From the IMG/VR virus record IMGVR_UViG_3300035661_000090, positions 1-50,493 of that record: a stretch of 50,493 nt of DNA. One strand, 5' to 3'. The notes under the pieces are model-generated. The model made no database searches, was not told where the DNA came from, and saw nothing but the letters and a program-made list of their open reading frames with translations. Source of the DNA: a virus (Duplodnaviria > Caudoviricetes). Made by a program: the position numbers and the translations under genes. Below are positions 1-50,493 of this stretch, one piece after another; position 1 is the stretch's first letter; the number at the start of each line of letters is the position of its first letter.

Positions 1-1
1 T

Positions 2-748
2 ATCGCCATAGGTGCCGATCTCAGACGTGCTGATCTCAGAGATGCCGATCTCAGTAGTGCCGATCTCAGAGATGCCGATCTCAGACGTGCTGATCTCAGT
101 AGTGCCGATCTCAGTGGTGCCGATCTCAGACGTGCTGATCTCAGAGATGCCGATCTCAGTAGTGCCGATCTCAGAGATGCCAATTTCAGAGGTGCCGATC
201 TCAGACGTGCCAATCTAAGAGGTGCCGATCTAAGAGGTGCCGATCTAAGAGGTGCCGATCTCAGTGGTGCCGATCTCAGACGTGCTGATCTCAGAGATGC
301 CGATCTCAGAGATGCCAATCTCAGTAGTGCCGATCTCAGAGATGCCAATTTCAGAGGTGCCGATCTCAGAGGTGCCGATCTCAGACGCGCCGATTTCAGA
401 GGTGCCGATCTCAGAGATGCCAGGTCTGGTGGTTTAGCCATTGCCGCAAGCACGGAAGGCAAAGCCTTGCTCAGACGAATTCTCACACAGATTACAGAAT
501 GCCCTGAGTCCCTAGATATGAGCGATTGGCATTGTGGAACCGCACACTGCCTTGCTGGATGGGCAGTCACGCTAGATCCCAGAGGCCCCGAATTAGAAAG
601 AGCGCAAGGCACACGATCGGCGGGGATGATCTTGCTAGGCGTCGAAGCCGCTACTCATTTTAACGACACCAATACAGATGCCTTAAAGTGGCTGAGAAAA
701 GCGTGTGCCGATTACAACAATCTGCCCGCGACGGGCGAGGGGGAGTGA
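2..748 (+). CDS. Pentapeptide-repeat protein, 3' part (gene wraps the contig ends), with C-terminal WHCGTAHCLAGW domain
   Basis: Frame 2 is open from base 2: IAIG-(ADLRR/ADLRD/ADLSS/ANFRG)x27-ARSGGLAIAA, running in frame into the listed ORF 467..748. A(D/N)LXX is the pentapeptide-repeat consensus. Confidence 0.9.
   Translation: MAIGADLRRADLRDADLSSADLRDADLRRADLSSADLSGADLRRADLRDADLSSADLRDANFRGADLRRANLRGADLRGADLRGADLSGADLRRADLRDADLRDANLSSADLRDANFRGADLRGADLRRADFRGADLRDARSGGLAIAASTEGKALLRRILTQITECPESLDMSDWHCGTAHCLAGWAVTLDPRGPELERAQGTRSAGMILLGVEAATHFNDTNTDALKWLRKACADYNNLPATGEGE
14..418 (+). repeat. 27 tandem 15-bp units (GCCGATCTCAGAGAT-like) encoding pentapeptides
   Basis: Directly visible 15-bp period; (419-14)/15 = 27 units. 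Confidence 0.95.
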
Positions 749-5648: not shown

Positions 5649-5690
5649 ACGCCCTTAGGTGTGAAAGCATCTAAGGGCGTTTCTTATTTA
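5649..5690 (+). terminator. Rho-independent terminator preceding repeat copy 1
   Basis: ACGCCCTTAGGTG/CATCTAAGGGCGT stem followed by TTCTTATTT. Confidence 0.75.
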
Positions 5691-5897
5691 CATATGATCG
5701 ACGAGCAGAGATGTTTACGCTTTATCTTGGGTGTACGCTCGTGCACGAAAAACGTCGCAAAAAACAATCCGAAAAATACAGAAAAAATATCGCCGCACTA
5801 TTTACACGCAAAACTAACATCGGTAGTATAACTATCGTAGTTAGTCGATGCGACTAGCGACAACGATCAAAACTAAGCGAACGGAACACGACCATGA
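5676..5897 (+). repeat. ~222-bp direct repeat, copy 1 (terminator tail + promoter + leader to ATG)
   Basis: Near-identical to 7949-8171 from GGCGTTTCTTATTTAC to GAACACGACCATGA. Confidence 0.95.
5801..5829 (+). promoter_or_regulatory. Sigma70-like early promoter
   Basis: TTTACA-17bp-TAGTAT with an A-tract upstream; TAGTCG-atg-CGACTA inverted repeat at 5842-5856; conserved in copy 2. Confidence 0.75.
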
Positions 5898-6456: not shown

Positions 6457-7470
6457 ATGGCACACGACTTGAACATTGAAAACGGCCGGGCGTCGATGGC
6501 GTACGTACGCGGTGAAGGCGCACCCTGGCACGCTCTGGGGCAAGCGGTCGAATCGGCCATGACGTGGGAAGAGGCGTACGTTCAAGGCGGACTTGACTGG
6601 AACGTTGATCGGGTCAAGATGCAAACAGTCGGCGAGTATCGTTACGCGATACCCAACCGCGTTGCGCTCGTTCGCTCCGACACGAAAGCGGTTCTAGGTA
6701 CTGTCTCGTCGCAGTATATCCCGATCCAGAATCATGAGGCGTTCGGCTTGCTCGACTCGCTCGTGGCCGACGCGGGATTGCGCTATCACACCGTTGGAGC
6801 GCTGGGCAAGGGTGAGATCATTTGGTTGCTCGCGAAAGTTCCTGATCCCATCGTGATCAAAGATGTCGATGTTGTCGAAAAATATCTCCTTTTGACGAAT
6901 CAATTCAACGCGAAACGAGCGATGCGAATCATCTGGACGCCGACGCGCGTCGTTTGCCAGAACACGCTCAACCGCGCTCTTCAGGAGGGGCATAGTTCGG
7001 GGGTTGCGATTCGTCACCGTGGCGACATCGCTGCACAATTCAAAGAAGCACGACAGATTCTCGGGCTGGCGAATCGCTACTTTGATTCCTTTGAGGACTC
7101 AATCAACAAGCTCGCAAATCACTACCCGAAAAAAACGCAGCTAGACAAATTTTTCAAAACGCTCTACCCGGACCCGAAGGACAAGAAAGACGGCACGACG
7201 TCGCTGGGAACGAAAGCGCAAAACACGCGGGACATTTTGTTCGGTCTATTCGAGAACGGGATCGGCAACGACATGCCCGAGATTCGCTACAGCACTTGGG
7301 CGGCCTATAACGCGGTGACTGAGTACGTTGACCGTCATCGCGCTCGCAAGAGCGGCGAGACGACACGCCAGCAGGACGCCAATTCCTTAAAGTCCTCGTG
7401 GCTCGGCTCGGGAGCGAAAATCAAGGAATCAGCGTATAAAGGCGCGTTAGCAATGGCGGGCGTCAACTGA
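6457..7470 (+). CDS. DUF932 / TIGR03299-type phage-plasmid protein
   Basis: MAH...PWHALG...LDWNV...YIPIQNHEAF...TPTRVVCQNTL...TWAAYNAVTEYVD family motifs. Confidence 0.85.
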   Translation: MAHDLNIENGRASMAYVRGEGAPWHALGQAVESAMTWEEAYVQGGLDWNVDRVKMQTVGEYRYAIPNRVALVRSDTKAVLGTVSSQYIPIQNHEAFGLLDSLVADAGLRYHTVGALGKGEIIWLLAKVPDPIVIKDVDVVEKYLLLTNQFNAKRAMRIIWTPTRVVCQNTLNRALQEGHSSGVAIRHRGDIAAQFKEARQILGLANRYFDSFEDSINKLANHYPKKTQLDKFFKTLYPDPKDKKDGTTSLGTKAQNTRDILFGLFENGIGNDMPEIRYSTWAAYNAVTEYVDRHRARKSGETTRQQDANSLKSSWLGSGAKIKESAYKGALAMAGVN

Positions 7471-7920: not shown

Positions 7921-7962
7921 GCCGGGCTCGCCAGACGTCGGCGGGCTCGGCGTTTCTTATTT
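7921..7962 (+). terminator. Rho-independent terminator preceding repeat copy 2
   Basis: GCCGGGCTCGCC/GGCGGGCTCGGC stem (with G-U pairs) followed by GTTTCTTATTT. Confidence 0.7.
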
Positions 7963-8171
7963 ACATATGATCGACGAGTAGAGATGTTTACGCTTTATCT
8001 TGGGTGTACGCTCGTGCACGAAAAACGTCGCAAAAAATAATCCGAAAAAATACAGAAAAAATATCGCCGCGATATTTACACGCGAAACTAACATCGTTAG
8101 TATAAGGATCGTAGTTAGTCGATGCGACTAGCGACAACGATCAAAACTAAGCGAAGGGAACACGACCATGA
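7949..8171 (+). repeat. ~222-bp direct repeat, copy 2, with promoter TTTACA-17bp-TAGTAT
   Basis: Near-identical to 5676-5897. Confidence 0.95.
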
Positions 8172-11284: not shown

Positions 11285-11728
11285 ATGTCGTCACTCGTTG
11301 ATTGGTTGGCAAACATCATTTTGCGAGCGATCGGATCAAGACCGATCGCTCGTTTGTCAGGAGTTGAAAAAGTGAAAGTGCTCGATTTGATTCACAAGAC
11401 AGAAATCGCGCATGATTTCGCGGACGCAAAACAACAGGAGGCCGATTCGCTCGCCGCGATTGCGAAACAGGCACGACTCAACGCGTTGTCGATTGAAGGC
11501 CAACTCGCGGGCGCACTATTCAAAGTCGGCACCGTATACGCGACGCGTTCCGACGGAACCGTTGTTCTGTACGAGGCGACATCCCCAACGCTGATCACGG
11601 TCAAGACATTTAACGACGCCTCAACGCTCGACGTCCCAGACGACTCGACGTCGCCCGTAATCCCGCCTACGGACGTTTCGCCGCCCTCTCCGGTCGTTCC
11701 CCCACCGTCGCCCGCTCCGATCGTATAA
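11285..11728 (+). CDS. Hypothetical protein, Pro-rich C-terminus
   Basis: Operon-like spacing. Confidence 0.7.
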   Translation: MSSLVDWLANIILRAIGSRPIARLSGVEKVKVLDLIHKTEIAHDFADAKQQEADSLAAIAKQARLNALSIEGQLAGALFKVGTVYATRSDGTVVLYEATSPTLITVKTFNDASTLDVPDDSTSPVIPPTDVSPPSPVVPPPSPAPIV

Positions 11729-11749
11729 CGACGACATGAGGCACTTGCG

Positions 11750-12226
11750 ATGACGATTCGCCTCGACGACGCCCTTCCTCGTGTGTACATCGAAGGCGTC
11801 GAGGCGTGGTGCGAGTTTGATTCGAGCGACGGGAACGCGATAAAGGCTTGCCCGAATTGTCGCCGCAGGAAATTCGACGACGAACGAAAGCACGGATTCT
11901 CGCGGCATTGTTTGCGATGTCATCGCGCGACAAATGACCCCGAGGATTGGTCGATTCCTGGTCCGTTGAGTCGTCTAGCATCTCAGGCGAGTCGCGAAGA
12001 AGCGAAACGAGAGTCAAAGCGAAAGGCTTGCGAGGCTGAAAAGCACGCCAAGCTATTAGGTCAAATCAAAGCGTATAAAGCTGCCACGAAGGCGGCGAAG
12101 CGCAAAGCAAAGTCAAAGCGGCAAGCCAATAAGGATTTGAAGCGGAAACGCCTTGCCGCAAAACAGACAGGAAAATCGGAATGTCCGAAGTCGAGACGAT
12201 CTTCAAAGCCGACGGGAAAGACCTAA
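11750..12226 (+). CDS. Zn-finger (CPNC/CLRC) protein with Lys/Arg-rich tail
   Basis: Two CxxC pairs; basic C-terminus. Confidence 0.6.
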   Translation: MTIRLDDALPRVYIEGVEAWCEFDSSDGNAIKACPNCRRRKFDDERKHGFSRHCLRCHRATNDPEDWSIPGPLSRLASQASREEAKRESKRKACEAEKHAKLLGQIKAYKAATKAAKRKAKSKRQANKDLKRKRLAAKQTGKSECPKSRRSSKPTGKT

Positions 12227-12540
12227 CCCCGCCGCTCGTTCCACCGGCAGACGAACGACGCTCAATCGTCGCGAGAATTCTGCTATTCCTCAAAACGTTC
12301 TTTGGTCCGACGCCGGGAACGATCCCAGGTTACACAACAATCTGGGATAAGTATCGGCAGATGATCACGTCGATGATCGTCGGCGGAATAACGCACGCCC
12401 TGCTTGTCGTTCTCCCGCTTGCGATTGCCGACGTGCAAATTGCATTCGGCCCGATTCTCGGTGGAGTCGTGGCGGCGTTTCTGACCTACGTCCTCGAAGG
12501 CATTCGACGAACGTTCCAAGACGGCACAAAATCGGCCTAA
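12181..12540 (+). CDS. Holin-like two-TM membrane protein
   Basis: Two hydrophobic helices and a charged C-terminus. Confidence 0.55.
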   Translation: MSEVETIFKADGKDLTPPLVPPADERRSIVARILLFLKTFFGPTPGTIPGYTTIWDKYRQMITSMIVGGITHALLVVLPLAIADVQIAFGPILGGVVAAFLTYVLEGIRRTFQDGTKSA

Positions 12541-12580
12541 AGTCCTGCTAGGCCAATTTTACGAAAGGCAGAAATAAACG

Positions 12581-12889
12581 ATGCAGGACGTTTCAAATCA
12601 CTTAGATTTAACCCATAGCGGCGAGCATTCGGTAAGCACCGCAACCCAATGGGTTATTTTCGTGGCTCTGGTAATTGGGCACGCAGTCGGCGAGCGTATC
12701 CACTGGTTTCTATCGTTTTTGGGACTTGGAGAAACCGCGAGCGTGGAAACCTTTTTTCGTTGCTTGTCGTATTTCGCCGTCGCCGTCTCGGGATTCTCGG
12801 CGGCTTACGTCACTTGGGAACCGCGAATCAAAACTTGGCGGGCTCGTCGTCGCGAATCGAGAGACGAACCGAAATCGGGAGCGCAATGA
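12581..12889 (+). CDS. Holin-like membrane protein
   Basis: Hydrophobic helices followed by basic RARRRE tail. Confidence 0.55.
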   Translation: MQDVSNHLDLTHSGEHSVSTATQWVIFVALVIGHAVGERIHWFLSFLGLGETASVETFFRCLSYFAVAVSGFSAAYVTWEPRIKTWRARRRESRDEPKSGAQ

Positions 12890-12890
12890 G

Positions 12891-13571
12891 ATGGCACGCA
12901 AGCAAACTGAGAAGGCCGATCAAATCCGGATAGAATATGTCGATATCGACACGGTCGCATTCTGGGACAAGAATCCCAAGCTTCACGATGAGCAAGGAAT
13001 TCGTGATTCGATCACGCGATACGGATTTCGGGACGCGGCGATATTCGACTCAACGCTCGGGGCGCTTGTCGCGGGCAACGGGCGGATGCGAATCGCTCAG
13101 GCAATGAAGGCCGAGGGACTTCCTGCTCCTCGGGGAATCGTCGTCGAGGGCGACCGCTGGCTCGTTCCGGTCCAGAAGGGCGTTGACGCAACGACAACGA
13201 GCGAGGCCGCGGCGTTTGCGATCGATCACAACAACCTAACGGTCGGACCCGCGTTGACGCCTATCGAAACGGCGAGATTATGGGACCCCGAGAATTATCT
13301 CGTCGTCCTCGACGAATTATCGCATGTCGACTCGCTGCCGATTACCTTGGATCAAATGACGATCGAAACGCTCGCCGAGAATCTCGGAAGCAAATTGATC
13401 GACGACGTGAAGGAAGGCGAATCGACGCCACCCGATGATTTCAAAGCGTACGACGAGACGATTGCGACCCTCTACCAATGTCCTCAGTGTGCGTATCGAT
13501 GGAGCGGAAAAGCGAATAACGATGCCACAAATCAAACCCCCGTACAAAGTTCCGACGCTCAAGGAAATTGA
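12891..13571 (+). CDS. ParB/Srx-like N-terminal domain protein with C-terminal Zn ribbon
   Basis: WDKNPKLHD...IRDSITRYGF...LVAGNGR ParB-N motifs; YQCPQCAYRW; overlaps the methyltransferase start. Confidence 0.85.
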   Translation: MARKQTEKADQIRIEYVDIDTVAFWDKNPKLHDEQGIRDSITRYGFRDAAIFDSTLGALVAGNGRMRIAQAMKAEGLPAPRGIVVEGDRWLVPVQKGVDATTTSEAAAFAIDHNNLTVGPALTPIETARLWDPENYLVVLDELSHVDSLPITLDQMTIETLAENLGSKLIDDVKEGESTPPDDFKAYDETIATLYQCPQCAYRWSGKANNDATNQTPVQSSDAQGN

Positions 13572-14682
13572 GCAGATACCAAAAAACGGGTTCCTTGCTG
13601 CGTCAACGTTCTCAGGGTGCGGTGGCTCGTGTCTCGGGTATCGCATGGCGGGCTTTAACGTAGCCTGGGCAAGCGAATTCATTCCCGCCGCTCAGGAAAC
13701 GTATCGTGCAAATCATCACGACACGATTCTCGACACTCGCGATATTCGCAAAGTCGATCCCGACTCGATTCTGCAGGCGATGAAAATCGAAAAGGGGCAG
13801 CTCGACTTGTTCGATGGATCGCCTCCGTGTGCCTCATTCTCCACAGCGGGAAAGCGCGAGGCCGGATGGGGCGAAACGAAAAAATACAGCGACACAAAAC
13901 AGCGAACCGACGACCTGTTTTTTGAGTACGCTCGAATCCTTCGCGGGCTTATGCCGAAAGTGTTTGTAGCCGAAAACGTCTCGGGGCTCATTAAGGGAAC
14001 GGCAAAAGGCTATTTCCTACAGATTCTAAAGGCGTTGAAAGAGTCGGGATATCGTGTTGAGGCGAGACTACTTGATGCCCAATGGCTCGGCGTACCTCAG
14101 GCGAGACAACGACTCATTTTCATGGGCGTCCGAAACGACATCGGCCTCTCGCCAATCTTCCCGAAACCACTACCTTATCAATACACCGTTCGCGATGCGA
14201 TCCCGTGGATTAAGAAAGTCGCCGTTGCAAATAACGTTTTCGCCGGATCGTCTCGACCGTCGAAAACGATCCTTGCCATTCAAGGCCTTTTAACGAAGTC
14301 AACACTCACGGGCGAATCTATGGGCGAGGTCGAGGCCGAATGCGACATCACGCGATTCGCAATCGGGAAAGAGTACGACCGAATGGGGAGCACTCTGAAA
14401 AGCGACAAATACTTCAATCTGGTAAAGCCAAACATCAATAAGGCTTGTCCGACGATTTTAGCAGAAGGTGGGAACACTGGCGCGGCAGGCGTCGTACATC
14501 CGACTGAGCGGCGAAAATTCAGCATTGCCGAACTTAAACGCGTCTGCGGATTTCCCGACGATTTCATACTCACGGGAACCTTTGCTCAACAGTGGGAACG
14601 ACTCGGGCGAGCCGTGCCGCCCGTGATGATGGCGGCGATCGCAATAACCGTGCGAGACGAGATTCTATGCAAGATAAAGTGA
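13522..14682 (+). CDS. C5-cytosine DNA methyltransferase-family enzyme, predicted carboxymethyltransferase
   Basis: Motifs I FSGCGG, IV GSPPCASFS, VI ENVSG, VIII PQARQR, IX RKFSIAELKRVCGFP; motif X reads LGRAVPP instead of GN(A/S)V. Confidence 0.92.
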   Translation: MPQIKPPYKVPTLKEIEQIPKNGFLAASTFSGCGGSCLGYRMAGFNVAWASEFIPAAQETYRANHHDTILDTRDIRKVDPDSILQAMKIEKGQLDLFDGSPPCASFSTAGKREAGWGETKKYSDTKQRTDDLFFEYARILRGLMPKVFVAENVSGLIKGTAKGYFLQILKALKESGYRVEARLLDAQWLGVPQARQRLIFMGVRNDIGLSPIFPKPLPYQYTVRDAIPWIKKVAVANNVFAGSSRPSKTILAIQGLLTKSTLTGESMGEVEAECDITRFAIGKEYDRMGSTLKSDKYFNLVKPNINKACPTILAEGGNTGAAGVVHPTERRKFSIAELKRVCGFPDDFILTGTFAQQWERLGRAVPPVMMAAIAITVRDEILCKIK

Positions 14683-15383
14683 TGCCCACCGGGGCGTGGG
14701 AATTCGACGAAAACGTCACCGCGTGTTTTGACGACATGCTATCGCGTTCGATTCCCGATTATGAGGAAATGCGATCGCTAGTCCTACGAGTCGGAACCGA
14801 ATTCGTTCAACACCGAACCGAAATCGTCGACCTCGGTTGCTCGCGAGGCGCGGGCCTTGAACCGTTCGTCCGAAAGTTCGGAGCGTTTAATCATTACATC
14901 GGCGTCGAAATCTCGCCGCCAATGCTCGCCGCGAGCCGCGAACGATTCGCGGGCCTCGTCGAACGGAACATAGTCGACATTCAATCGATCGACCTAAGGC
15001 ACGAGTATCCTCCCGTCGCTGCGTCGTTGACGCTCTGCTGCTTGACGCTCCAGTTCACGCCGATTGAGTATCGACAGCAAATCCTCAAATCTATCTTCCG
15101 GTCGACACTGCCGGGCGGAGCGCTGATTCTCGTCGAAAAAATTATCGGCTGCTCAGCAGAAATCGACAGTATCCTCGTGAAGCTACACCTTCGGCACAAG
15201 GAGGATAACGGCTATAGTAAAGATGCAATCGATCGCAAGCGTTTATCGCTCGAAGGCGTCCTCGTTCCTATCACGGCGGCGTGGAATGAACAGCTAGTTC
15301 GAACGGCGGGATTCTCGCAAGTCGAAATGGTTTGGAGGAATCTCAATTTTGCCGCTTGGGTCGCTGTCCGCAACGAAGTGTGA
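14667..15383 (+). CDS. cmoA: CmoA-like carboxy-S-adenosylmethionine synthase
   Basis: WEFDENVTACFDDMLSRSIPDY, DLGCSRG, LTLQF, PGGALILVEK, KRLSLEGVL and AGF...NF all parallel CmoA. Alternative start 14682 via TGATG overlap. Confidence 0.85.
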   Translation: MQDKVMPTGAWEFDENVTACFDDMLSRSIPDYEEMRSLVLRVGTEFVQHRTEIVDLGCSRGAGLEPFVRKFGAFNHYIGVEISPPMLAASRERFAGLVERNIVDIQSIDLRHEYPPVAASLTLCCLTLQFTPIEYRQQILKSIFRSTLPGGALILVEKIIGCSAEIDSILVKLHLRHKEDNGYSKDAIDRKRLSLEGVLVPITAAWNEQLVRTAGFSQVEMVWRNLNFAAWVAVRNEV

Positions 15384-15441
15384 TAAGGATGTCCAAGGAT
15401 CGCAAGTATATAACACGGTAACAATTTCGCGAGCGTAATCA

Positions 15442-15702
15442 ATGAGCAACCCGATGAAACGATTCGCGAACGACGTTAACGCCCGTTTTCGCTTGAATAC
15501 GAACGAAGTCAACGGATTCGAGGAAGTGCCTCTCGAATCGCAACCGGCGTTAAAGCCGCGAGAATCGCCTGTGTGCTTCGGGTGCGGGCATTCGTGGTCG
15601 AATCATGGGGGAGACTTCGGGTGTCGTTCTAGGACGGTTCACGGCGATTCTGTCGGGTTGCCTTGCGGTTGCATGAACCCGGTTCCGGCGAACGAATCAT
15701 GA
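15442..15702 (+). CDS. Small Cys/His Zn-binding protein
   Basis: CFGCGHSWSNH...C...CGC. Confidence 0.65.
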   Translation: MSNPMKRFANDVNARFRLNTNEVNGFEEVPLESQPALKPRESPVCFGCGHSWSNHGGDFGCRSRTVHGDSVGLPCGCMNPVPANES

Positions 15703-16070
15703 CACAATTGCAGAGATCAGCGATCGACATCGAGCTTGCCGACCGAATCACGAACGAACTCGGCCCCAAGCTCAAGGAGATCGCACGGGACGACGAGGCG
15801 TCGCTCGTTGCGATCGTCGAGCAAGAAGTCGGGCATCTTGCCGCAAATGCAACTCATCTCGTGATGCCATTTGTGCTTGCGGTCATTCCGTGGCTCGTTC
15901 GGCAGTCCGGACGAATCGCCCTCGAGCGGTACGGCGATGCGACGGTCCGCGAAATCGCTTCGCACGCCTGGGAAATCGGCGAGCGAAAGCACGACGAGGC
16001 GGACAAACGATCAAACGGTGGTGGCGGGTCGTTTGCCAGCGCAAGCCCGCGAGACAACAGCGGCGAGTAA
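15699..16070 (+). CDS. Hypothetical protein with hydrophobic segment
   Basis: ATGA overlap with the upstream gene. Confidence 0.65.
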   Translation: MTQLQRSAIDIELADRITNELGPKLKEIARDDEASLVAIVEQEVGHLAANATHLVMPFVLAVIPWLVRQSGRIALERYGDATVREIASHAWEIGERKHDEADKRSNGGGGSFASASPRDNSGE

Positions 16071-16074
16071 TCAC

Positions 16075-16695
16075 GTGCCAAAACCCTGGGAGCGACGACC
16101 CGAAGAATCCGCCGCTGCCTTCAGGGCCGCACAGACGTACTTTAACCTCGGGCCTAGTCGATCAATCGACGCCGTAGCCGCGTTATTAACCCGGCAAGGA
16201 AAAGGCAAGGATCAGGCAAGGAAAGGCAAAACGGCGTGCGGCAGCTTTACTAAATGGTCAGCTACGCATAAATGGCGAGAACGAGCAGCGGCGTGGGACG
16301 CCCATCTCGACGCCCTCCAGGTCGCCGCGAACGAGAACGCCGCGAGGGTGAAAGCGGCTCAGCGGGCGGATGCGGCAATCCAACGACACGAGTTTGACCT
16401 TGAGGCAACATGGAATTTAAGGCATCTCGTTTTGCTTGAAATTCAGTCGCTGTTAAAGACGAAGGCGAACGGGAAGGAGATCGGACTCTCGCATCTTTCG
16501 CAGTTGATCACGAACTTTAACAACACGAAAACGGCTCGGGATATTTATTTCGGTACGGTACTTCCTTCGCCTTCTCAGTCGACAACGAACGGGTCGGAAG
16601 CTAACGCGACGAGCAAAGCGATTGCCGTAACGACGGAAGAGCAAGAGGCGGCATTCAAAGCGATATCCGAAATGAGAGCGAAGAAAACGAAATGA
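16075..16695 (+). CDS. Probable terminase small subunit
   Basis: PWERRPEESAAAF...Y..LG..RS...WS..HKW.ERA.AWD pattern; position upstream of TerL. GTG start inferred. Confidence 0.7.
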   Translation: MPKPWERRPEESAAAFRAAQTYFNLGPSRSIDAVAALLTRQGKGKDQARKGKTACGSFTKWSATHKWRERAAAWDAHLDALQVAANENAARVKAAQRADAAIQRHEFDLEATWNLRHLVLLEIQSLLKTKANGKEIGLSHLSQLITNFNNTKTARDIYFGTVLPSPSQSTTNGSEANATSKAIAVTTEEQEAAFKAISEMRAKKTK

Positions 16696-16991
16696 GCACT
16701 CCCCGGAACCGATTGATTGCCGCAGCGAACGATCGGTCGACGCGGTACATATTCGACTGCCCGGCGTGCAATTCGCGGCACTGGTTTACGGTTCGTAACG
16801 ATCGCAGCGATCCCTCGTGGACGTTCGACGGGGACCTCGTTCGGCCGACCGTCGATCAGGCGATACACACGAGGAATCAATACATCTGCATATTGCGAAT
16901 CGCTCGCGGTCGCATTACGTATCTTGATGGATCGACCCACGAAATGAGAGGGCAAACAATCGAGATGCCAACACCCGAGCCGATGCGGTAG
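16692..16991 (+). CDS. Second DUF6527-like protein
   Basis: CPACxxxH...WTFDGDxxRPT...GRITYLDGSTHEMRGQT parallels 2885..3229. Confidence 0.65.
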   Translation: MSTPRNRLIAAANDRSTRYIFDCPACNSRHWFTVRNDRSDPSWTFDGDLVRPTVDQAIHTRNQYICILRIARGRITYLDGSTHEMRGQTIEMPTPEPMR

Positions 16992-16997
16992 GCAATC

Positions 16998-18569
16998 ATG
17001 AGCGACTTGACATCAATCGAATATACCGATCCATATTGGAACGCGGTTAAAGAGTTGTCGCCGAAATCACTCGACGCCTTCTACGGTTGGCTGACGACGA
17101 TTCTCGGCGTTCAGGTTGCGACTTGCAACGTCTGCGAGGAACACTCGGCACCGTTTGCGATGCTCGCCGAACAGTGGTTTGAGCGTCCGCCCATCGCGTT
17201 ATGGCACGGGCCGCGAGGCGGCGGAAAGACGTTTCTCTCGGCGGCTGACTCGTGGATGGAATCGCGGTTCACTCGCAAACTCTCGACGCGAATCCTGGGT
17301 GGTTCAAAAGATCAGTCGTCTCAGATTTACGAGGCGATGAAACGTTTTGCCGCACCCGATCAGGAAGATCATGCGGCGATCAAACAGCTCAACGTTCAGT
17401 CCGGTCGGTTCCAAAACGATTCGCACGTCGCAATTCTCGCCGCGAGCAGCACGAGCGTTCGCGGCCCGCACGTGCAACGATTGAAGCTAGACGAGGTTGA
17501 CGAAATTGAGCCCGACATTCGCGAGTCAGCAATCGGCATGTGTATGGGGTTGCATGGGATCAAACCCTCGATCCTCATGACGTCGACGTGGCATAAAGTC
17601 GGCGGGCCGATGCAAGCGTTGATCGAACGCGGGCGAGCGGGCGAATTCCCGGTCCATTCGTTTTGCTCATTCGAGGTTTTAGAGCGTTGCCCCGAGGATC
17701 GATCGGGCCCTTACGTCGGCGGCGACGCGGTTTATGAGCGATGTCCGTCGTGTCCGATCAAGCGATACTGCCATGACGGATGCGACCGTTTCGACGGTAT
17801 CCCGAAAGCGAAACGATCGGGCGGACACTATACGATCGACTCGTTGGTGCAGAAGGTTCGCTCGGTATCGCTCGCGGCATTCGAGTCGGACTATATGTCG
17901 TGGCGTCCGCCCGTTGCGGGCTTATGGTTTCCGACGTTCTCACGAGCTTCGAATATGACGATCGACGCCGAATACAATCCGTCCCATCCCGTCCACCTCT
18001 CGATCGACTCAGGCGTCTGTACGGGGGCGGTCTGGATTCAGTTTTATCGACGTCTGCTCGGCGGCATATTGACTGACAGCGTGAACATTTTCGCCGATTA
18101 TTACTCGGAGAACGAGCTTGCCTTCGAGGATGCGAAACTCATCCTTGCGAAAGGTGAAACGCTTTGCCAGGGACGTCGCGAGGTATCAACACACGACCCG
18201 GCAGGCGAATCGAGAACGGCGACCGGAACGACCGTGCTCGCCGAATTCGAGCGGGCGGGATTGATGGGCCTGAGGCCGTGGCCACGTCGCGAAATCATCG
18301 ACGGAATCTCGCTTATCGACGCGTTTGTACGAGCGGCGGACGGTAAAGCGGCGCTTCTCGTGCACCCGCGTTGCAAGCACGTTCTTCAGGCGTTTGAAAA
18401 CTACAAACGGGCGAAAGTTCGCGGTGTGTGGCAAGACTATCCACCAGCGCAGGAGCAACACCCATTTGAGGATTTGATCGACCCGATACGAGGCGCGATG
18501 CTCAATAAATATCCCAGCGGTCGACGTCCCGAAACTGGCGTTCTCGTGTCGCCTCGCCGCGTGTTCTGA
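16998..18569 (+). CDS. terL: Terminase large subunit
   Basis: Walker A GPRGGGKT, Walker B LKLDEVDE, motif III TST, nuclease SIDSG and EDLID. Confidence 0.9.
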   Translation: MSDLTSIEYTDPYWNAVKELSPKSLDAFYGWLTTILGVQVATCNVCEEHSAPFAMLAEQWFERPPIALWHGPRGGGKTFLSAADSWMESRFTRKLSTRILGGSKDQSSQIYEAMKRFAAPDQEDHAAIKQLNVQSGRFQNDSHVAILAASSTSVRGPHVQRLKLDEVDEIEPDIRESAIGMCMGLHGIKPSILMTSTWHKVGGPMQALIERGRAGEFPVHSFCSFEVLERCPEDRSGPYVGGDAVYERCPSCPIKRYCHDGCDRFDGIPKAKRSGGHYTIDSLVQKVRSVSLAAFESDYMSWRPPVAGLWFPTFSRASNMTIDAEYNPSHPVHLSIDSGVCTGAVWIQFYRRLLGGILTDSVNIFADYYSENELAFEDAKLILAKGETLCQGRREVSTHDPAGESRTATGTTVLAEFERAGLMGLRPWPRREIIDGISLIDAFVRAADGKAALLVHPRCKHVLQAFENYKRAKVRGVWQDYPPAQEQHPFEDLIDPIRGAMLNKYPSGRRPETGVLVSPRRVF

Positions 18570-23986: not shown

Positions 23987-24530
23987 AAACATACACGCCC
24001 ACGCATCGCTTGCCTTGTCATATGCGGCAAGCGAGAACGACGGGCGAGCGTTCATTCGGGTTCGTAACACCCTTAATTACGCGCACGCACAACAGCACGT
24101 CGCGGCGTTGCGTTCGCCAATCATCGAAGCGATCGGAAACACTCGCGAGGCGACGTATCGTATCGCTCATGAGGAATGGGCGAAATTGATTCCTCTCGAA
24201 TCGCAACGATTCGCCGAGCCGAAATTGACGACCGGGGCACTTGCTCGAATTCGTTCGGCGACCTTGCACGGAAAGCAAATCCACGAGGACGTCGCGAACC
24301 TCGTTGAAGAGGCGGGATCGTCGCTGCTCGCGGCGTTGTCGATCGCATCGAAAGGGAACGCGGGGCAGACGTTGAAGGCGTGGAAGGATCGTCAGATTGA
24401 CGTGATCACGCATCAACTTCAAGCGATGATCGTAAGCTCGCAAACGTTTGCCGACGTCACGGCCTCTCGTGATCTCATCAAGGAGGACTTACTAACTCCC
24501 GAGGCGATCGCACATGGCGGGACGGAATAG
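23958..24530 (+). CDS. Helical protein, possibly the N-terminal half of a split MuF/gp7 head protein
   Basis: Long open frame directly overlapping the MuF-motif gene. Start uncertain. Confidence 0.55.
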   Translation: MKEIVKTAIENIHAHASLALSYAASENDGRAFIRVRNTLNYAHAQQHVAALRSPIIEAIGNTREATYRIAHEEWAKLIPLESQRFAEPKLTTGALARIRSATLHGKQIHEDVANLVEEAGSSLLAALSIASKGNAGQTLKAWKDRQIDVITHQLQAMIVSSQTFADVTASRDLIKEDLLTPEAIAHGGTE

Positions 24531-25956
24531 GGCAAGCATAAGCGGCGACCCAGGGCAGAGATGGAAAAACAACTCGGGGCGAGTGCAATGGCAGTTGATA
24601 GTAAACTGGCATAATTCCTGCGCTCGTTGCATTCAATACGATCACCAGATTGCGCCGTGGTGGTCGATTCCATTCCATTACGGTTGCAATTGCGAACAAG
24701 TTCCGATCGCAGTCGGAGCGACGGCAAAGCCGTTCGTGGATTATCGGGAGAAGATTCGCGAGCTTGACCGCAAGCAATTAACGAAGGTCATGGGGCGTGC
24801 GAATCTTCAGCTCGTCGAGGCTGGTATCGTCAAATGGGACGACGTTGTTACACGCTCGCGAATCCTAGACTTCCATGAGGTCGTCGACCGATTCAGCTTG
24901 TCGACAAAAGCGATGAGCAGGGCGGGCGTTTCGCCGGGTGTGATTCGACGCGCGAAAGCGATGACCTCGACGACGGCACACACGACGACGACCGCGCGGC
25001 AAGCGGAGCTCGTCGATCAACTCAAATCCAAGGGGGCGAAGGATGAAGAAATCAAGCGGCGAGCAAAGGAACTTCTCGGGGCAAGATTTGGTGTCGAGCC
25101 TGGGCACGGGCAAAAGCAAACAATCATCCCGAGCGGTCCCCAAACTCCTAACCGCCCCAGCGGTCAACCAAAATCCCCCGCCGCTCCCGGCAATGCGACC
25201 GTTAAAAGGCCGATAGACCGGCCTCAGATCGATTCTAACGCGTCCACCGGGGGAGCGACGTCGAATCGTAGCGGCACGAACGTCGCGGGCGTTAAATCGC
25301 CGCCTACGGGTTCGCCCGGTCCAGCGACGACAACAACGACACGTCCCGAAACGATTCCCCCAAGGCTGGGGCGTCCGGTCGTCGTGAAAACGGGCGGCAA
25401 GATTTTCAAGGAATTCGAGTCGAGCACAAACGGAGCAAAGTGGGCCCGCGAGCAGTATAGACCTTGGGCGAATCGATTGAGCGACGAGCAATCGAAATCC
25501 TTCGGAGCATTCAAGCGATCCGCCGAGCCTGGTTTCAACGTCTCGCTGCGTGCCGAGACGACGTTGACAACGACGCAGGCGAAAACGGTTGCCTTGCTCG
25601 ACGCGTCGATTGCAAAGGCTCGTGCTCCTCAGAATGTCGCTGCGTATCGCGGGCTCGACATTCCGCCGAACGATCCGTCGCTCACGGTCGGCTCAACGAT
25701 CGCCGACGACGGTTTCGCAACCGCTCTGCTAAGTCGTCGAGCAATCGAAAACGAGATGGGAGACGTCGGCGAGTCCGTCGTTCTCAAAATGCTCGTCGAA
25801 CGAGGATCGAGAGTCGCGTCGCTCGATGCCGTCAACGCATCCAATCAAGGCGAGTTGATTTTCCCGCGTGGCACTCAATTTCGGATCGTGTCGATCACGT
25901 CGCCGAAGAGAAAATCAGACCGCCACGTTATTACCGTGGAGATTATCAATGAGTAG
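24514..25956 (+). CDS. MuF-like head protein fused to C-terminal VIP2/C3-like ADP-ribosyltransferase domain
   Basis: N-terminal CARC...PFHYGCNC (MuF Cys/His motif); C-terminal AYRG, DDGFATA, QGELIFPRG. Confidence 0.8.
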   Translation: MAGRNRASISGDPGQRWKNNSGRVQWQLIVNWHNSCARCIQYDHQIAPWWSIPFHYGCNCEQVPIAVGATAKPFVDYREKIRELDRKQLTKVMGRANLQLVEAGIVKWDDVVTRSRILDFHEVVDRFSLSTKAMSRAGVSPGVIRRAKAMTSTTAHTTTTARQAELVDQLKSKGAKDEEIKRRAKELLGARFGVEPGHGQKQTIIPSGPQTPNRPSGQPKSPAAPGNATVKRPIDRPQIDSNASTGGATSNRSGTNVAGVKSPPTGSPGPATTTTTRPETIPPRLGRPVVVKTGGKIFKEFESSTNGAKWAREQYRPWANRLSDEQSKSFGAFKRSAEPGFNVSLRAETTLTTTQAKTVALLDASIAKARAPQNVAAYRGLDIPPNDPSLTVGSTIADDGFATALLSRRAIENEMGDVGESVVLKMLVERGSRVASLDAVNASNQGELIFPRGTQFRIVSITSPKRKSDRHVITVEIINE

Positions 25957-44160: not shown

Positions 44161-45105
44161 ATGCGGCGAGACAATCAACTCCCGGATCATTATCGATTCG
44201 CAATCGTTCCCTTGTCGATCCTTCGCAACGAGGAGGCAAGCGATCGGGCTAAATTACTTTATTCGATTGTGATTGCCACGTCGTTTACCGACGGCGTTTG
44301 CGTGCTGTCAAACGCTCAACTCGGCGACCTAATTGGTGGGCGTCACTCGTCGCGAATCAGCGCTATATTGAGTGAGCTTGTTGATCTCAAATGGTTGACG
44401 ATCTCATATCGGTCGACGGACTCGGCAACTCGCGAGCTTATCCCGTTGGTGGTCGCTGCCGGAACGACTCATGCCGCCAGCCCCTCGCGAAAATGCGATA
44501 CCCCCCCTCGCGAAAATGCGATACCCCCCCTCGCGAAAATGCGATACCCCCCCTCGCGAAAATGCGATACCCCCCCTCGCGAAAATGCGATACCCCCACA
44601 CAATATAGAACGCGCCCGCGAATTAGATTTCGATTTAGATACGAAAGAACGAAAGAAAAATATATATCCGCTCGGTGCTTCGGAGCGATCGCCCAACGCA
44701 ATTGGATCCGAACGACTCGAAGCAATTCGCAAGGCGTGTTCACTTGCCGAGACGTTGCTACCGCTTCGGGATGATATCGTAAAAATCGTCCGCGAAAATT
44801 TCCTTCGACTCGACCCGCTTTGGTATCGTGTCGCAGTCATGCGATTGAGCGAGCAATCGCGAGAAAAACAAACCTCGGCCTATTTCAAAGGCATGTTGAA
44901 AAATATGCTCACGGCGGGCGGTCCGACCGCGAAAGATTTCGCCGACGAGGAATTGCTTTGGCTCGTGTCGTTGCCTGCGAACGAGCAAGCGGAAGTGCGA
45001 GAACGCAAAGCAGCGGCGACCGTAGCAACGCAAGCGTCCGCAATCGAGGCGGCGAAGAAACGCTCACGGGAATACGCGGAGAGTTTGAAAGGCGGAATCA
45101 AATGA
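44161..45105 (+). CDS. Replication initiator (lambda O-like layout: N-terminal wHTH, internal iterons)
   Basis: SDRAKLLY...SNAQLGDLIG..SSRISAILSELVDLKWL HTH; internal repeats followed by an AT-rich tract. Confidence 0.85.
   Translation: MRRDNQLPDHYRFAIVPLSILRNEEASDRAKLLYSIVIATSFTDGVCVLSNAQLGDLIGGRHSSRISAILSELVDLKWLTISYRSTDSATRELIPLVVAAGTTHAASPSRKCDTPPRENAIPPLAKMRYPPSRKCDTPPRENAIPPHNIERARELDFDLDTKERKKNIYPLGASERSPNAIGSERLEAIRKACSLAETLLPLRDDIVKIVRENFLRLDPLWYRVAVMRLSEQSREKQTSAYFKGMLKNMLTAGGPTAKDFADEELLWLVSLPANEQAEVRERKAAATVATQASAIEAAKKRSREYAESLKGGIK
44481..44597 (+). repeat. Five iterons with 23-bp period (C7-TCGCGAAAATGCGATA), putative replication origin
   Basis: Cores at 44485, 44508, 44531, 44554, 44577; AT-rich 44620-44670 follows. 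Confidence 0.9.
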
Positions 45106-47252: not shown

Positions 47253-48977
47253 ATGAAGGTCAAAGCGTTTCGCATACGCGATTTTAAGAAAATCTCAATC
47301 GTGGATGCGACGATTGATCATCTCGGGTCCGTGGTACAAGTCACGGGCCCGAACGGTGCGGGTAAGTCGTCAGTGATAGACGGAATCATTGCGACGATCG
47401 GAGGCGAGAAATTGTCGCCGACTCATCCGATACGTCGCGGGTCGAACAGCGCGTCGGCAAGCATAACGCTCGGCGAATACGAAGTCACTCGGACGTGGAA
47501 GACGGAGGAACGCGACGGAGATGTCGAGATCCTTTCGACCTTAACCGTCCGAGGCGCGGACGGTCGTACGATCTCGCGACGTCCGCAGCAGATTCTCAAC
47601 GAGCTTGTCGGAAAGCTTTCGTTTGATCCGGTCGCGTTTTATGCGATGGACGCAAAGCAACAGGCCGAGCAATTTCGAGCGGTCACGGGCCTTGACTTCA
47701 CCGAGCTTGACAAACGACGGAAGGACATATTTGAGAAGCGGACAGATGTCAATAAGCTGTTGAAGGCCGCGGAAGCGAGACGGGATGCGATCGCATTCGA
47801 TCCGAACGTTGCGAGTGAACGCGTTTCGACTTTGAAATTGATTGAGCTAATCAACAACGCCAAGGACAGGAACCGCGATAATGCGAACCAACGCGAAAGG
47901 CTGCGAACGCTTCGGGCTGATTACGACACCGCAAAAAAGGAGGTTGAGCGTCTCGAATACGAACTCGCAAACGCTCGCAAAAAGTTCGCACAAATCGAAG
48001 CGGACGGACGAAGCCAAAACACGATATGCAAGGCCCTGGAGGAACAATCAACCGACTTGCTTGAAGCGCAGTTGAGCAACGCCGAAACGATCAACGCAGC
48101 GATCGACGCGCAAACGTCAAGGCGAACGATCGACGAGGAGTGCAAGCGATATGAAAAAGAGGCCGCGAACTTTTCTGAAATCATCGCGAAAATCGACGGC
48201 GAGAAAAACTTCAAACTCGCAACCGCGAACCTTCCGATTCCGGATCTCGGCATCAGCGGCGAGGGCGTGAATTACAAGGGAGTGCCGCTCGACCAGGCGT
48301 CGCAAGTCGAACGTCTGCGAGTGAGTCTCGCGATGGCCGCCGCACTCAATCCGCAACTGCGGACGCTATTCGTACGCGACACGCCGATGATCACGAAGGC
48401 CTCGCTAGCGATCATCACGACTTGGGCAGAGACGAACGATTATCAGATCATCATGGAAAGAGCGATCGACGACCCAGCAACGGACGGCGTCGGGCTCGTC
48501 ATTGAGGAAGGGTCTCTCGTTTCGATTCGCGACAACGACGGGAATCTTGCATCGCTTTACCCATCGCTCGACGCGTCGAGCAAGACGCCGAAGAAACGAA
48601 CCTCGGTGAGAATGGGCGATCCATCGCCACCCGTCGTTCCAGCAACGCCGGCACCGACGACAACGCAACCCGACGTCGACCCGTTCGACGACACGTCGTC
48701 GCCAATAATGACGCCAGAAGCGCCCCAGGCAAGGCCTGCGAGCATCGTGATCTCGTCCCGCATATCGCAACACAACGGGCCACGAGGACGTTCACGCAGC
48801 GGCGACATCTACTACGAGATGATCACGAGCGAGATGCCCGACATAGATCTCGCGGGCGAGGAGCAACAGAAGCTCGGCTATCACCCCGCGGGCTACGGTT
48901 TCCATTCGTTCGCGTGCAATAAGCGACTCGACGGAACTTTCATCGCCACCTGGAAGTCGTCGGACAACTGCGAATAA
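47253..48977 (+). CDS. SMC/Rad50-like ATPase with extra C-terminal domain
   Basis: IRDFKKI, Walker A GPNGAGKSS, long coiled coil, LDQASQVE, FVRD. Confidence 0.85.
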   Translation: MKVKAFRIRDFKKISIVDATIDHLGSVVQVTGPNGAGKSSVIDGIIATIGGEKLSPTHPIRRGSNSASASITLGEYEVTRTWKTEERDGDVEILSTLTVRGADGRTISRRPQQILNELVGKLSFDPVAFYAMDAKQQAEQFRAVTGLDFTELDKRRKDIFEKRTDVNKLLKAAEARRDAIAFDPNVASERVSTLKLIELINNAKDRNRDNANQRERLRTLRADYDTAKKEVERLEYELANARKKFAQIEADGRSQNTICKALEEQSTDLLEAQLSNAETINAAIDAQTSRRTIDEECKRYEKEAANFSEIIAKIDGEKNFKLATANLPIPDLGISGEGVNYKGVPLDQASQVERLRVSLAMAAALNPQLRTLFVRDTPMITKASLAIITTWAETNDYQIIMERAIDDPATDGVGLVIEEGSLVSIRDNDGNLASLYPSLDASSKTPKKRTSVRMGDPSPPVVPATPAPTTTQPDVDPFDDTSSPIMTPEAPQARPASIVISSRISQHNGPRGRSRSGDIYYEMITSEMPDIDLAGEEQQKLGYHPAGYGFHSFACNKRLDGTFIATWKSSDNCE

Positions 48978-50331: not shown

Positions 50332-50493
50332 ATGAGCATATACAAGAATAACGGCGAGATTATCTACGAATCGGACCAGCCGACTCGCCAGGCATTACTC
50401 GAAGCTATCGCCATAGGTGCCGATCTCAGACGTGCTGATCTCAGAGATGCCGATCTCAGAGATGCCAGGTCTGGTGGTTTAGCCATTGCCGCA
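50332..50493 (+). CDS. 5' part of the pentapeptide-repeat gene (wraps to base 1)
   Basis: MSIYKNNGEIIYESDQPTRQALLEAIAIG-ADLRR-ADLRD-ADLRD-ARSGGLAIAA. Confidence 0.85.
   Translation, partial: MSIYKNNGEIIYESDQPTRQALLEAIAIGADLRRADLRDADLRDARSGGLAIAA
50406..50493 (+). repeat. Terminal overlap with the window start (circular closure)
   Basis: 50406-50459 = bases 1-54; the final 45 nt = bases 404-448. Confidence 0.9.

What the first reader, a model, noticed from the sequence alone, without database searches (positions are those of the whole stretch)
13522..15383. Predicted phage DNA carboxymethylation system: Asn->Arg C5-methyltransferase coupled to a CmoA-like carboxy-SAM synthase
Seen: a complete C5-MTase whose motif X reads ERLGRAVPP (Arg codon CGA, 14608-14610) where the family has GN(A/S)V. 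It is fused by a TGATG overlap to a CmoA homologue that keeps the KR motif (Arg codon 15240-15242). No CmoB-like tRNA enzyme is present. Known: CmoA makes carboxy-SAM from SAM and prephenate, using an Arg (R199 in E. coli) to bind the carboxylate. Engineering the motif-X Asn of M.MpeI to Lys converts it into a Cx-SAM-using DNA carboxymethyltransferase. Inference: the phage makes its own Cx-SAM and writes 5-carboxymethylcytosine into its genome, a bulky anionic mark that could block restriction enzymes and methyl-directed nucleases. I recall natural phage 5cxmC systems being reported recently, so novelty should be checked against the literature.
Basis: partly seen in the sequence, partly recalled or inferred. 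Interest (0 to 1): 0.95.

Follow-up and report, generated by a model that had tools for sequence, protein, structure and literature searches.

The report
Phage DNA carboxymethylation genes, already described

Summary
ORF 13522-14682 is a complete C5-cytosine methyltransferase homologue with Arg363 (CGA, 14608-14610) where the family has Asn. ORF 14682-15383 is a CmoA homologue that keeps the Arg199 equivalent (CGT, 15240-15242). The two genes share one base (TGATG).

The best solved-structure match of the transferase is 8YF3, SpCmoX of Synechococcus phage S-B43 (E 1.4e-65, full length). Its Arg aligns on SpCmoX R350 and on the Asn of M.HaeIII.

That paper screened IMG/VR and other collections and lists 5,615 CmoX candidates. 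The window is itself an IMG/VR record, so this is a new member of a known kind, not a discovery.

Local features:
- Gene order is ParB-like, CmoX, CmoA, just upstream of the terminase genes.
- The CmoA is the bacterial type, only 25% identical to SpCmoA.
- The target-recognition region has diverged from SpCmoX (14 of 67 aligned positions identical).
- No CmoY or asparagine-synthase-like ligase was found in a genome rated 100% complete, so free 5-carboxymethylcytosine may be the final mark.
- The host is probably a planctomycete.

No chemistry was tested here.

The parts
12891..13571 (+). ParB-like protein (226 aa) with a C-terminal CxxC segment. It overlaps the CmoX start by 50 nt. It is a likely accessory of the cassette; its role is unknown.
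   Evidence: phrog_620 'ParB-like partition protein' at E 6.9e-12 and phrog_723 at 2.5e-8. 27% identical to TurkishDelight gp122, annotated 'ParB-like nuclease domain protein' (E 8.8e-8). Pfam ParB_N (PF02195) does NOT match. A homologous piece lies upstream of CmoX in 65 of 80 related loci, with a gap of 150 nt or less in 41 of them.
13522..14682 (+). CmoX homologue: predicted DNA cytosine C5-carboxymethyltransferase (386 aa).
   Evidence: PF00145 at E 2.7e-57. 8yf3_A SpCmoX at E 1.4e-65, query 5-385 on chain 2-372. AF2 model with mean pLDDT 85.1; top Foldseek PDB hit 8yf3 at E 2.5e-29, TM 0.68/0.79.
13828..13830 (+). TGT codon of the catalytic Cys103, in GSPPC (motif IV).
   Evidence: Aligned on SPPC (C98) of SpCmoX. 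SPPC is present in 81 of 81 family members examined.
14608..14610 (+). CGA codon of Arg363, at the motif-X Asn position. This is the predicted carboxylate-binding residue.
   Evidence: Aligned on SpCmoX R350 and on the Asn of M.HaeIII. Arg is present in 79 of 81 family members.
14680..14684 (+). TGATG: the CmoX stop and the CmoA start share one base.
   Evidence: Read directly from the sequence.
14682..15383 (+). CmoA homologue: predicted carboxy-SAM synthase (233 aa), bacterial type.
   Evidence: TIGR00740 at E 9e-46, 156.5 bits, below the cut-off of 193.3. 1im8 at 3.9e-33 and 4gek at 1.5e-31, both full length. 25% identical to the assayed SpCmoA (E 1e-22).
15240..15242 (+). CGT codon of Arg187, equivalent to E. 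coli CmoA Arg199.
   Evidence: Alignment to 4gek. Arg-199 is the only contact to the Cx-SAM carboxyl group in CmoA (PMC4482062, passage read). KR is present in 27 of 30 bacterial-type CmoA copies next to CmoX relatives.

Best explanation
A three-gene cassette (ParB-like, CmoX, CmoA), placed just upstream of the terminase genes of a complete 50.5-kb tailed phage, carboxymethylates the phage's own DNA.

Proposed steps:
- CmoA converts SAM plus host prephenate into carboxy-SAM.
- CmoX uses the normal C5-methyltransferase chemistry. Cys103 attacks C6 of a flipped-out cytosine, with ENV Glu151 and Arg195/Arg197 in place.
- With Arg363 holding the cofactor's carboxylate, CmoX transfers the carboxymethyl group to C5, giving 5-carboxymethylcytosine.
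- No amide ligase is detectable, so the free acid is predicted to be the final mark. It would block restriction enzymes whose sites contain the target.

Shown here: the homology, the residues, the gene arrangement and the absence of recognisable ligases.
Inferred: both enzyme activities, the end product, the target sequence and the protective role.
For: - Full-length similarity to crystallised SpCmoX, with SPPC and R350 aligned. The fold search puts 8yf3 first.
- 80 IMG/VR relatives at 47-66% identity were kept of 129 found. Counting the window, they give SPPC in 81 of 81 and Arg in 79 of 81.
- A CmoA homologue lies within the fetched flanks of 58 of the 80 relatives. In 35 of those 58 it is directly downstream (gap 150 nt or less), as here.
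- The window's CmoA aligns end to end with E. coli and H. influenzae CmoA and keeps Arg199.
- Published experiments (PMC12783734; Results and Discussion read): SpCmoA makes Cx-SAM; SpCmoX accepts only Cx-SAM; R350N is dead; 5cxmC blocks HhaI.
- No ligase: PF00733 finds nothing in the whole record, although it rings in 15 of 34 relatives' records of 20 kb or more. tblastn with SpCmoY and with TurkishDelight gp124 gives only noise (best E 0.69 and 0.032).
- Pfam scans of 63 window ORFs showed no ligase-like family.
- CheckV rates the record 100% complete.
Against: - No activity was measured for these proteins.
- Identity to the assayed enzymes is modest: 36% to SpCmoX and 25% to SpCmoA.
- The CmoA score is below NCBIfam's equivalog cut-off (156.5 vs 193.3 bits; 117.5 vs 285 for NF011995).
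- The target-recognition region is only 14 of 67 aligned positions identical to SpCmoX, and residues 233-269 are modelled at pLDDT below 50. The target is therefore unknown.
- Most ORFs of this phage match no family, so an unrecognised ligase cannot be excluded.
- In the only phage whose DNA was analysed, 5cxmC was not the end product.
- GCGC is strongly avoided in this genome (137 observed vs 365 expected). That would be unnecessary if every GpC were protected as in S-B43.
Confidence: 0.85

Rival explanations
1. The first two steps are as in the best explanation, but 5cxmC is only an intermediate. An unrecognised phage protein (one of the many ORFs with no family match) or a host enzyme converts it further into an amide or another derivative, as CmoY does in S-B43.
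For: S-B43 virion DNA held 5gcxmdC and no 5cxmdC. The paper reports several ligase clusters with unknown amine substrates. In the batch of 41 further ORFs only one Pfam family matched, so there is room for an unknown enzyme.
Against: PF00733 has no match in a record rated 100% complete, and there is no tblastn similarity to SpCmoY or the TurkishDelight gp124 ligase. The flanking small ORFs (12181-12889 and 15442-16070) are not conserved next to CmoX in any of 80 related loci. Lacking a ligase is common: 9 of 13 relatives' records rated at least 90% complete have no PF00733 match. The paper counts 2,251 ligases for 5,615 CmoX.
Confidence: 0.12
2. The transferase is an ordinary SAM-dependent 5-methylcytosine methylase. 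The CmoA-like gene serves something else: host tRNA cmo5U supply, or draining SAM to blunt SAM-dependent defences.
For: The catalytic motifs are those of any C5-MTase. The paper's Discussion raises SAM depletion by CmoA as an open question. The CmoA score is below the equivalog cut-off.
Against: Arg replaces the family's Asn, in 79 of 81 members of this clade. SpCmoX with the same Arg accepted only Cx-SAM, and its R350N mutant accepted neither cofactor. The genes overlap by one base. The genome has no CmoB and no tRNA genes.
Confidence: 0.03

Closest known systems
CmoA-CmoX-CmoY of Synechococcus phage S-B43 (Yang et al., Nat Commun 2025, PMC12783734; structure 8YF3)
   Same: An Arg-bearing C5-transferase homologue next to a phage CmoA, with no CmoB. 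SPPC, ENV, RxR and R350 are all aligned. It is the top sequence and fold match in the PDB.
   Different: 36% identity for CmoX and only 25% for CmoA, which belongs to a different CmoA class (KR here, KE-type in SpCmoA). The gene order is ParB-like, CmoX, CmoA rather than cmoA, cmoY, cmoX. There is no CmoY. The target-recognition region has diverged: 14 of 67 identical. This is a 50-kb phage of a probable planctomycete, against a 214-kb cyanophage.
Streptomyces phage TurkishDelight gp121-gp125 (NC_073473; annotation only, not characterised)
   Same: It is the closest cultured-phage relative of the transferase: 55.3% identity. It has the same order: ParB-like genes, then the transferase, then a CmoA-like methyltransferase.
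   Different: TurkishDelight has a 466-aa glutamine-amidotransferase-domain ligase between the two genes, and its CmoA is the divergent class (29% identity). The window has neither.
E. coli CmoA/CmoB (tRNA cmo5U pathway; 4GEK, 1IM8)
   Same: The window's CmoA aligns end to end and keeps Arg199. The reaction inferred is the same: SAM plus prephenate gives Cx-SAM.
   Different: There is no CmoB. The predicted acceptor is DNA cytosine C5, not tRNA ho5U. The score is below the equivalog cut-off.
Engineered M.MpeI N374K DNA carboxymethyltransferase
   Same: A basic residue at the motif-X Asn position lets a C5-MTase use Cx-SAM (as cited in PMC12783734, Discussion).
   Different: That enzyme is engineered, carries Lys, and is CpG-specific. 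Here the residue is a natural Arg and the target is unknown. I did not read the original M.MpeI paper.

Membership tests
CmoX (phage DNA cytosine C5-carboxymethyltransferase, as defined in PMC12783734) | C5-cytosine methyltransferase fold and domain | tested here: met
   PF00145 at E 2.7e-57. AF2 model with pLDDT 85.1, with 8yf3, HaeIII and HhaI among the top fold matches.
CmoX | SPPC motif with the catalytic Cys (S95-P96-P97-C98 in SpCmoX) | tested here: met
   S100-P101-P102-C103 aligned on it; invariant in alignment A2.
CmoX | Arg at the SpCmoX R350 / M.HhaI N304 position | tested here: met
   Arg363 aligned on R350 and on the Asn of HaeIII. The equivalence with HhaI N304 is taken from the paper.
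CmoX | Active-site Glu and Arg that contact cytosine N4 and O2 | tested here: met
   E151 (ENV) and R195/R197 (QARQR) are invariant in the 36-sequence alignment.
CmoX | Carboxymethyl transfer from Cx-SAM to DNA, and none from SAM | not testable with these tools
   Needs an enzyme assay or LC-MS.
CmoX | GpC target, as for SpCmoX | tested here: inconclusive
   The target-recognition region is 14 of 67 aligned positions identical to SpCmoX, against 96 of 222 in the catalytic part. Strong GCGC avoidance (O/E 0.38) is no help either way.
CmoA (carboxy-SAM synthase) | Full-length similarity to CmoA rather than to other class I methyltransferases | tested here: met
   TIGR00740 at E 9e-46; the next unrelated NCBIfam model is at 7.6e-5. 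1im8 and 4gek match end to end.
CmoA | Score above NCBIfam's curated equivalog cut-off | tested here: not met
   156.5 vs 193.3 bits (TIGR00740) and 117.5 vs 285 bits (NF011995). This does not argue against the activity: SpCmoA, at 25% identity and more divergent still, is an active Cx-SAM synthase.
CmoA | Arg199 equivalent that binds the Cx-SAM carboxylate | tested here: met
   Arg187 aligned on chain residue R213 of 4gek, which is native R199.
CmoA | Makes Cx-SAM from SAM and prephenate | not testable with these tools
   Needs an assay.
CmoY (ATP-dependent 5cxmC amide ligase, asparagine-synthase-like) | An Asn_synthase-type ligase gene in the genome | tested here: not met
   PF00733 finds nothing in the whole record; the same search rings in 15 of 34 relatives' records. 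tblastn with SpCmoY gives best E 0.69.
ParBc-domain partner (PF02195) noted with CmoX in the paper | Match to Pfam ParB_N | tested here: not met
   No PF02195 match. Only the PHROG ParB-like families match (phrog_620 at 6.9e-12), so I call it ParB-like and not a proven member.

The most novel reading that the evidence does not exclude
This ligase-less ParB-like/CmoX/CmoA cassette leaves free, negatively charged 5-carboxymethylcytosine as the final mark in virion DNA. That state has not yet been shown in any natural phage: S-B43 carries only the glycine amide. The mark would sit at a target other than plain GpC, in a phage of Planctomycetota.
Probability: 0.45. Interest if true: 0.45.

Novelty: new member of a known kind. 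Interest (0 to 1): 0.3.

Why it matters
It adds little new biology: thousands of such gene pairs are already catalogued.

Its practical value is as one of many ligase-less candidates. These could show whether free 5-carboxymethylcytosine exists as an end product in virions, and what other sequence specificities CmoX enzymes have. Both questions are left open by the paper's Discussion.

Tried and rejected
- **Ligases.** I looked for CmoY with Pfam PF00733 on the whole record and with tblastn using SpCmoY and the TurkishDelight gp124 ligase. Nothing turned up. Pfam scans of 63 window ORFs and PHROG scans of 51 showed no ligase-like family either.
- **Conserved small partners.** The ORFs flanking the cassette have no relatives in the 80 related loci, so I rejected them as parts of the system.
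- **ParB_N Pfam membership.** No match in three tries. The PDB search with the ParB-like protein gave only a chance flagellin hit at E 0.45.
- **Promoter and terminator scan, 11500-17200.** Counts were no higher than in shuffles (6 vs 3.4 +/- 1.6; 5 vs 7.8 +/- 3.2). This is not informative on operon structure.
- **Target from palindrome statistics.** GCGC is depleted here (O/E 0.38) but not in the 13-kb loci of other CmoX phages, where it is mostly 0.8-1.2. It does not identify the target.
- **CmoA class against ligase presence.** Comparing by eye showed no clear pattern.
- **Not used.** I made no protein-binding claim and did not use complex prediction. I did not use the search for homologous proteins, the search of protein representatives or the sequencing-run tools.
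- **Supplements.** I did not ask for supplementary files of PMC12783734, as they were announced closed. I therefore cannot say whether this IMG/VR record is among the paper's 5,615 CmoX sequences.
- **De-replication.** The 80 related loci were not de-replicated. Several are near-identical pairs (for example L048/L049 and L036/L037), so the counts overstate independent cases.
Full report
**What is in the sequence**

The window is one whole IMG/VR virus record of 50,493 bases. It is classed linear and CheckV rates it 100% complete. Nearly all long ORFs lie on the + strand.

Within the finding's coordinates there are two overlapping genes.

- ORF 13522-14682 (386 aa) matches the C5-cytosine DNA methylase family: PF00145 at E 2.7e-57 and TIGR00675 at 175 bits.
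- Its frame is open from an earlier ATG at 13435. Homology to SpCmoX begins at residue 5 of the 13522 start, so I keep 13522.
- ORF 14682-15383 (233 aa) matches CmoA. TIGR00740 is at E 9e-46, while the next unrelated NCBIfam model is at 7.6e-5.
- The stop TGA (14680-14682) and the ATG (14682-14684) share one base. Another in-frame ATG lies at 14667.

**The critical residues**

A phmmer search of all PDB chains puts 8yf3_A first at E 1.4e-65, with query 5-385 on chain 2-372. The next hit, M.HaeIII, is at 2.5e-25. 8YF3 is SpCmoX, the DNA cytosine C5-carboxymethyltransferase of Synechococcus phage S-B43 bound to Cx-SAM.

- In that alignment GSPPC aligns on SpCmoX S95-C98.
- ERLGRAVPP aligns on ERVGRMVPP, so Arg363 corresponds to R350.
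- The same position aligns on the Asn of HaeIII's IGNAVP.
- An AlphaFold2 model built on 36 sequences has mean pLDDT 85.1. One disordered stretch, 233-269, lies in the target-recognition region.
- Foldseek against the PDB again puts 8yf3 first: E 2.5e-29, TM 0.68 by query and 0.79 by target.

The CmoA homologue aligns end to end with H. influenzae YecO (1im8, 3.9e-33) and E. coli CmoA (4gek, 1.5e-31). Its Arg187 aligns on chain residue 213 of 4gek. That chain is 14 residues longer than the native numbering: chain F147 is the Phe-133 and chain R213 the Arg-199 named in PMC4482062. That paper states that only Arg-199 contacts the Cx-SAM carboxyl group in CmoA (passage read). The native length of 247 residues is recalled; the two-residue cross-check supports the offset.

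**It is a published system**

A full-text search for 'carboxymethylcytosine' found Yang et al., Nat Commun 2025 (PMC12783734). I read its abstract, Results, Discussion and Bioinformatics sections. The paper shows the following.

- SpCmoA makes Cx-SAM from SAM and prephenate.
- SpCmoX makes 5cxmdC in vitro, and in E. coli only when cmoA is present.
- 5cxmC blocks HhaI.
- R350 contacts the carboxymethyl group. Wild type accepts only Cx-SAM, and R350N accepts neither cofactor.
- SpCmoY ligates glycine to 5cxmC.
- S-B43 virion DNA holds the glycine amide and no free 5cxmdC.
- The target is GpC.

The authors then screened IMG/VR v4, UniProtKB and MGnify-derived phage sequences. They report 5,615 CmoX candidates with SPPC and R350, together with 4,257 CmoA, 2,251 ligases and 1,660 ParBc-domain proteins. 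The window's protein meets their stated criteria and comes from IMG/VR. I could not check their lists because supplements are closed.

Further searches for 'CmoX', for 'Cx-SAM'+'phage'+'cytosine', and for '5cxmC' found no other paper on natural DNA carboxymethylation in the held library.

**Relatives**

A scan of IMG/VR with the transferase gave 129 relatives, of which the best 80 were kept (47-66% identity). These loci were not de-replicated.

- Counting the window, 81 of 81 have SPPC and 79 of 81 have Arg at the motif-X position. The exceptions are L045, whose C-terminus looks frame-shifted, and L060, which has Leu.
- A CmoA homologue lies within the fetched flanks in 58 of 80. It is directly downstream (gap 150 nt or less) in 35, more than 600 nt downstream in 19, 151-600 nt downstream in 1, and upstream in 3.
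- A piece homologous to the upstream ParB-like protein is present in 65 of 80.
- The small ORFs flanking the cassette in the window have no relatives in those loci. The cassette therefore moves as a module of two or three genes.

Among cultured phages, the closest transferase is gp123 of Streptomyces phage TurkishDelight (55.3% identity); S-B43 is at 36.4%. TurkishDelight's order is ParB-like, ParB-like, transferase, glutamine-amidotransferase-domain ligase, methyltransferase.

**What differs here**

1. **No ligase.**
   - PF00733 finds nothing in the record. The same search rings in 15 of 34 relatives' records of 20 kb or more, 13 of them over the cut-off, and in 4 of the 13 rated at least 90% complete.
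   - tblastn with SpCmoY and with TurkishDelight gp124 gives only noise.
   - So the ligase-less state is real as far as homology can see, and it is the commoner state.
2. **The CmoA is the bacterial type.**
   - CmoA copies next to CmoX relatives fall into two classes.
   - One is 44-57% identical to the window's and has KR at the Arg199 position in 27 of 30.
   - The other is 22-30% identical, includes the type of the assayed SpCmoA, and has KE in 25 of 28, with an Arg a few residues downstream.
3. **The target-recognition region has diverged.** It is 14 of 67 aligned positions identical to SpCmoX, against 96 of 222 in the catalytic part and 31 of 56 at the C-terminus. GpC specificity cannot be carried over.
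4. **The upstream protein is ParB-like only by PHROG.** phrog_620 matches at 6.9e-12. Pfam ParB_N does not match.

**Context and host**

The cassette sits directly upstream of the packaging and structural genes:
- a small terminase (phrog_6299 at 4.2e-15) and a large terminase (phrog_2 at 3.7e-10);
- an SU10-type major capsid protein (PF17236 at 2.1e-33).

There are no tRNA genes and no CmoB.

The large terminase has 4 relatives in the species-genome collection, all in Planctomycetota MAGs (45-49% identity). Portal and capsid genes lie alongside in three and two of them respectively. None carries CmoX or CmoA within 8 kb. A planctomycete host is therefore an inference.

**Mechanism and confidence**

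I put 0.85 on the cassette making Cx-SAM and writing 5cxmC on the phage's DNA. Given that, I put roughly even odds on the free acid being the final mark.

Points against:
- No assay was done.
- Identity to the assayed enzymes is modest.
- The CmoA score is below the equivalog cut-off.
- Many ORFs are of unknown function.
- GCGC is strongly avoided: 137 observed against 365 expected, O/E 0.38. The 13-kb loci of other CmoX phages mostly show 0.8-1.2. Such avoidance would be unneeded if all GpC were protected. I leave this unexplained.

**Verdict**

The system was published in December 2025 and is catalogued in thousands of copies. This is a new member of a known kind and of modest interest.

Noticed in passing
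window 1-748 and 50412-50493: A pentapeptide-repeat ORF (PF00805 at 9.6e-51) is built on a 15-nt tandem array and runs off the 5' end of the contig. The last 82 bases of the contig repeat 367-448 at 94% identity. The record is probably a circle, or a terminally redundant genome, closed through this repeat gene, although IMG/VR classes it as linear.
   Followed up: partly
window 24514-25956 (+): A 480-aa ORF in the structural module, after the SU10-type capsid gene, carries a C-terminal ADP-ribosyltransferase exoenzyme domain (PF03496 at 6e-13, residues 309-473). It may be a virion-carried or injected ADP-ribosyltransferase.
   Followed up: no
window 44458-44620: About five to six tandem copies of a 23-nt unit that contains a short palindrome (TCGC..GCGA); four copies are identical. 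It looks like iterons, an origin or a protein-binding array. The only ParB-like gene in the genome is the one next to CmoX.
   Followed up: no
window 5676-5897 and 7949-8171: A direct duplication of about 220 nt (91-98% identity) flanks the DUF932 gene at 6457-7470 (PF06067 at 2.5e-55).
   Followed up: no
whole window: GCGC is strongly avoided (137 observed, 365 expected, O/E 0.38, z about -12). GGCC (0.64) and CCGG (0.61) are also low, while the CpG dinucleotide is enriched (rho 1.63). Other CmoX-bearing phage loci do not share the GCGC avoidance.
   Followed up: partly
loci L002-L081, L088, L089: There are two classes of CmoA next to CmoX relatives. The bacterial type has KR at the Arg199 position (27 of 30). 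The SpCmoA type has KE there (25 of 28), with an Arg a few residues downstream. The carboxylate-binding Arg may have moved in the class that includes the assayed SpCmoA.
   Followed up: partly
window 47253-48977 (+); one or more of the 41 ORFs batch-scanned: There is an SMC/RecF-like AAA ATPase (PF13476 at 1.4e-6). Among the 41 batch-scanned ORFs there are also matches to an endonuclease (phrog_93 at 8e-19) and a Holliday junction resolvase (phrog_5702 at 2e-7). The batch mode does not say which ORFs these are.
   Followed up: no
loci L090, L092, L093 (Planctomycetota MAGs): Prophage-like regions share terminase, portal and capsid genes with this phage at 39-49% identity, but they lack the CmoX/CmoA cassette within 8 kb.
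   Followed up: partly
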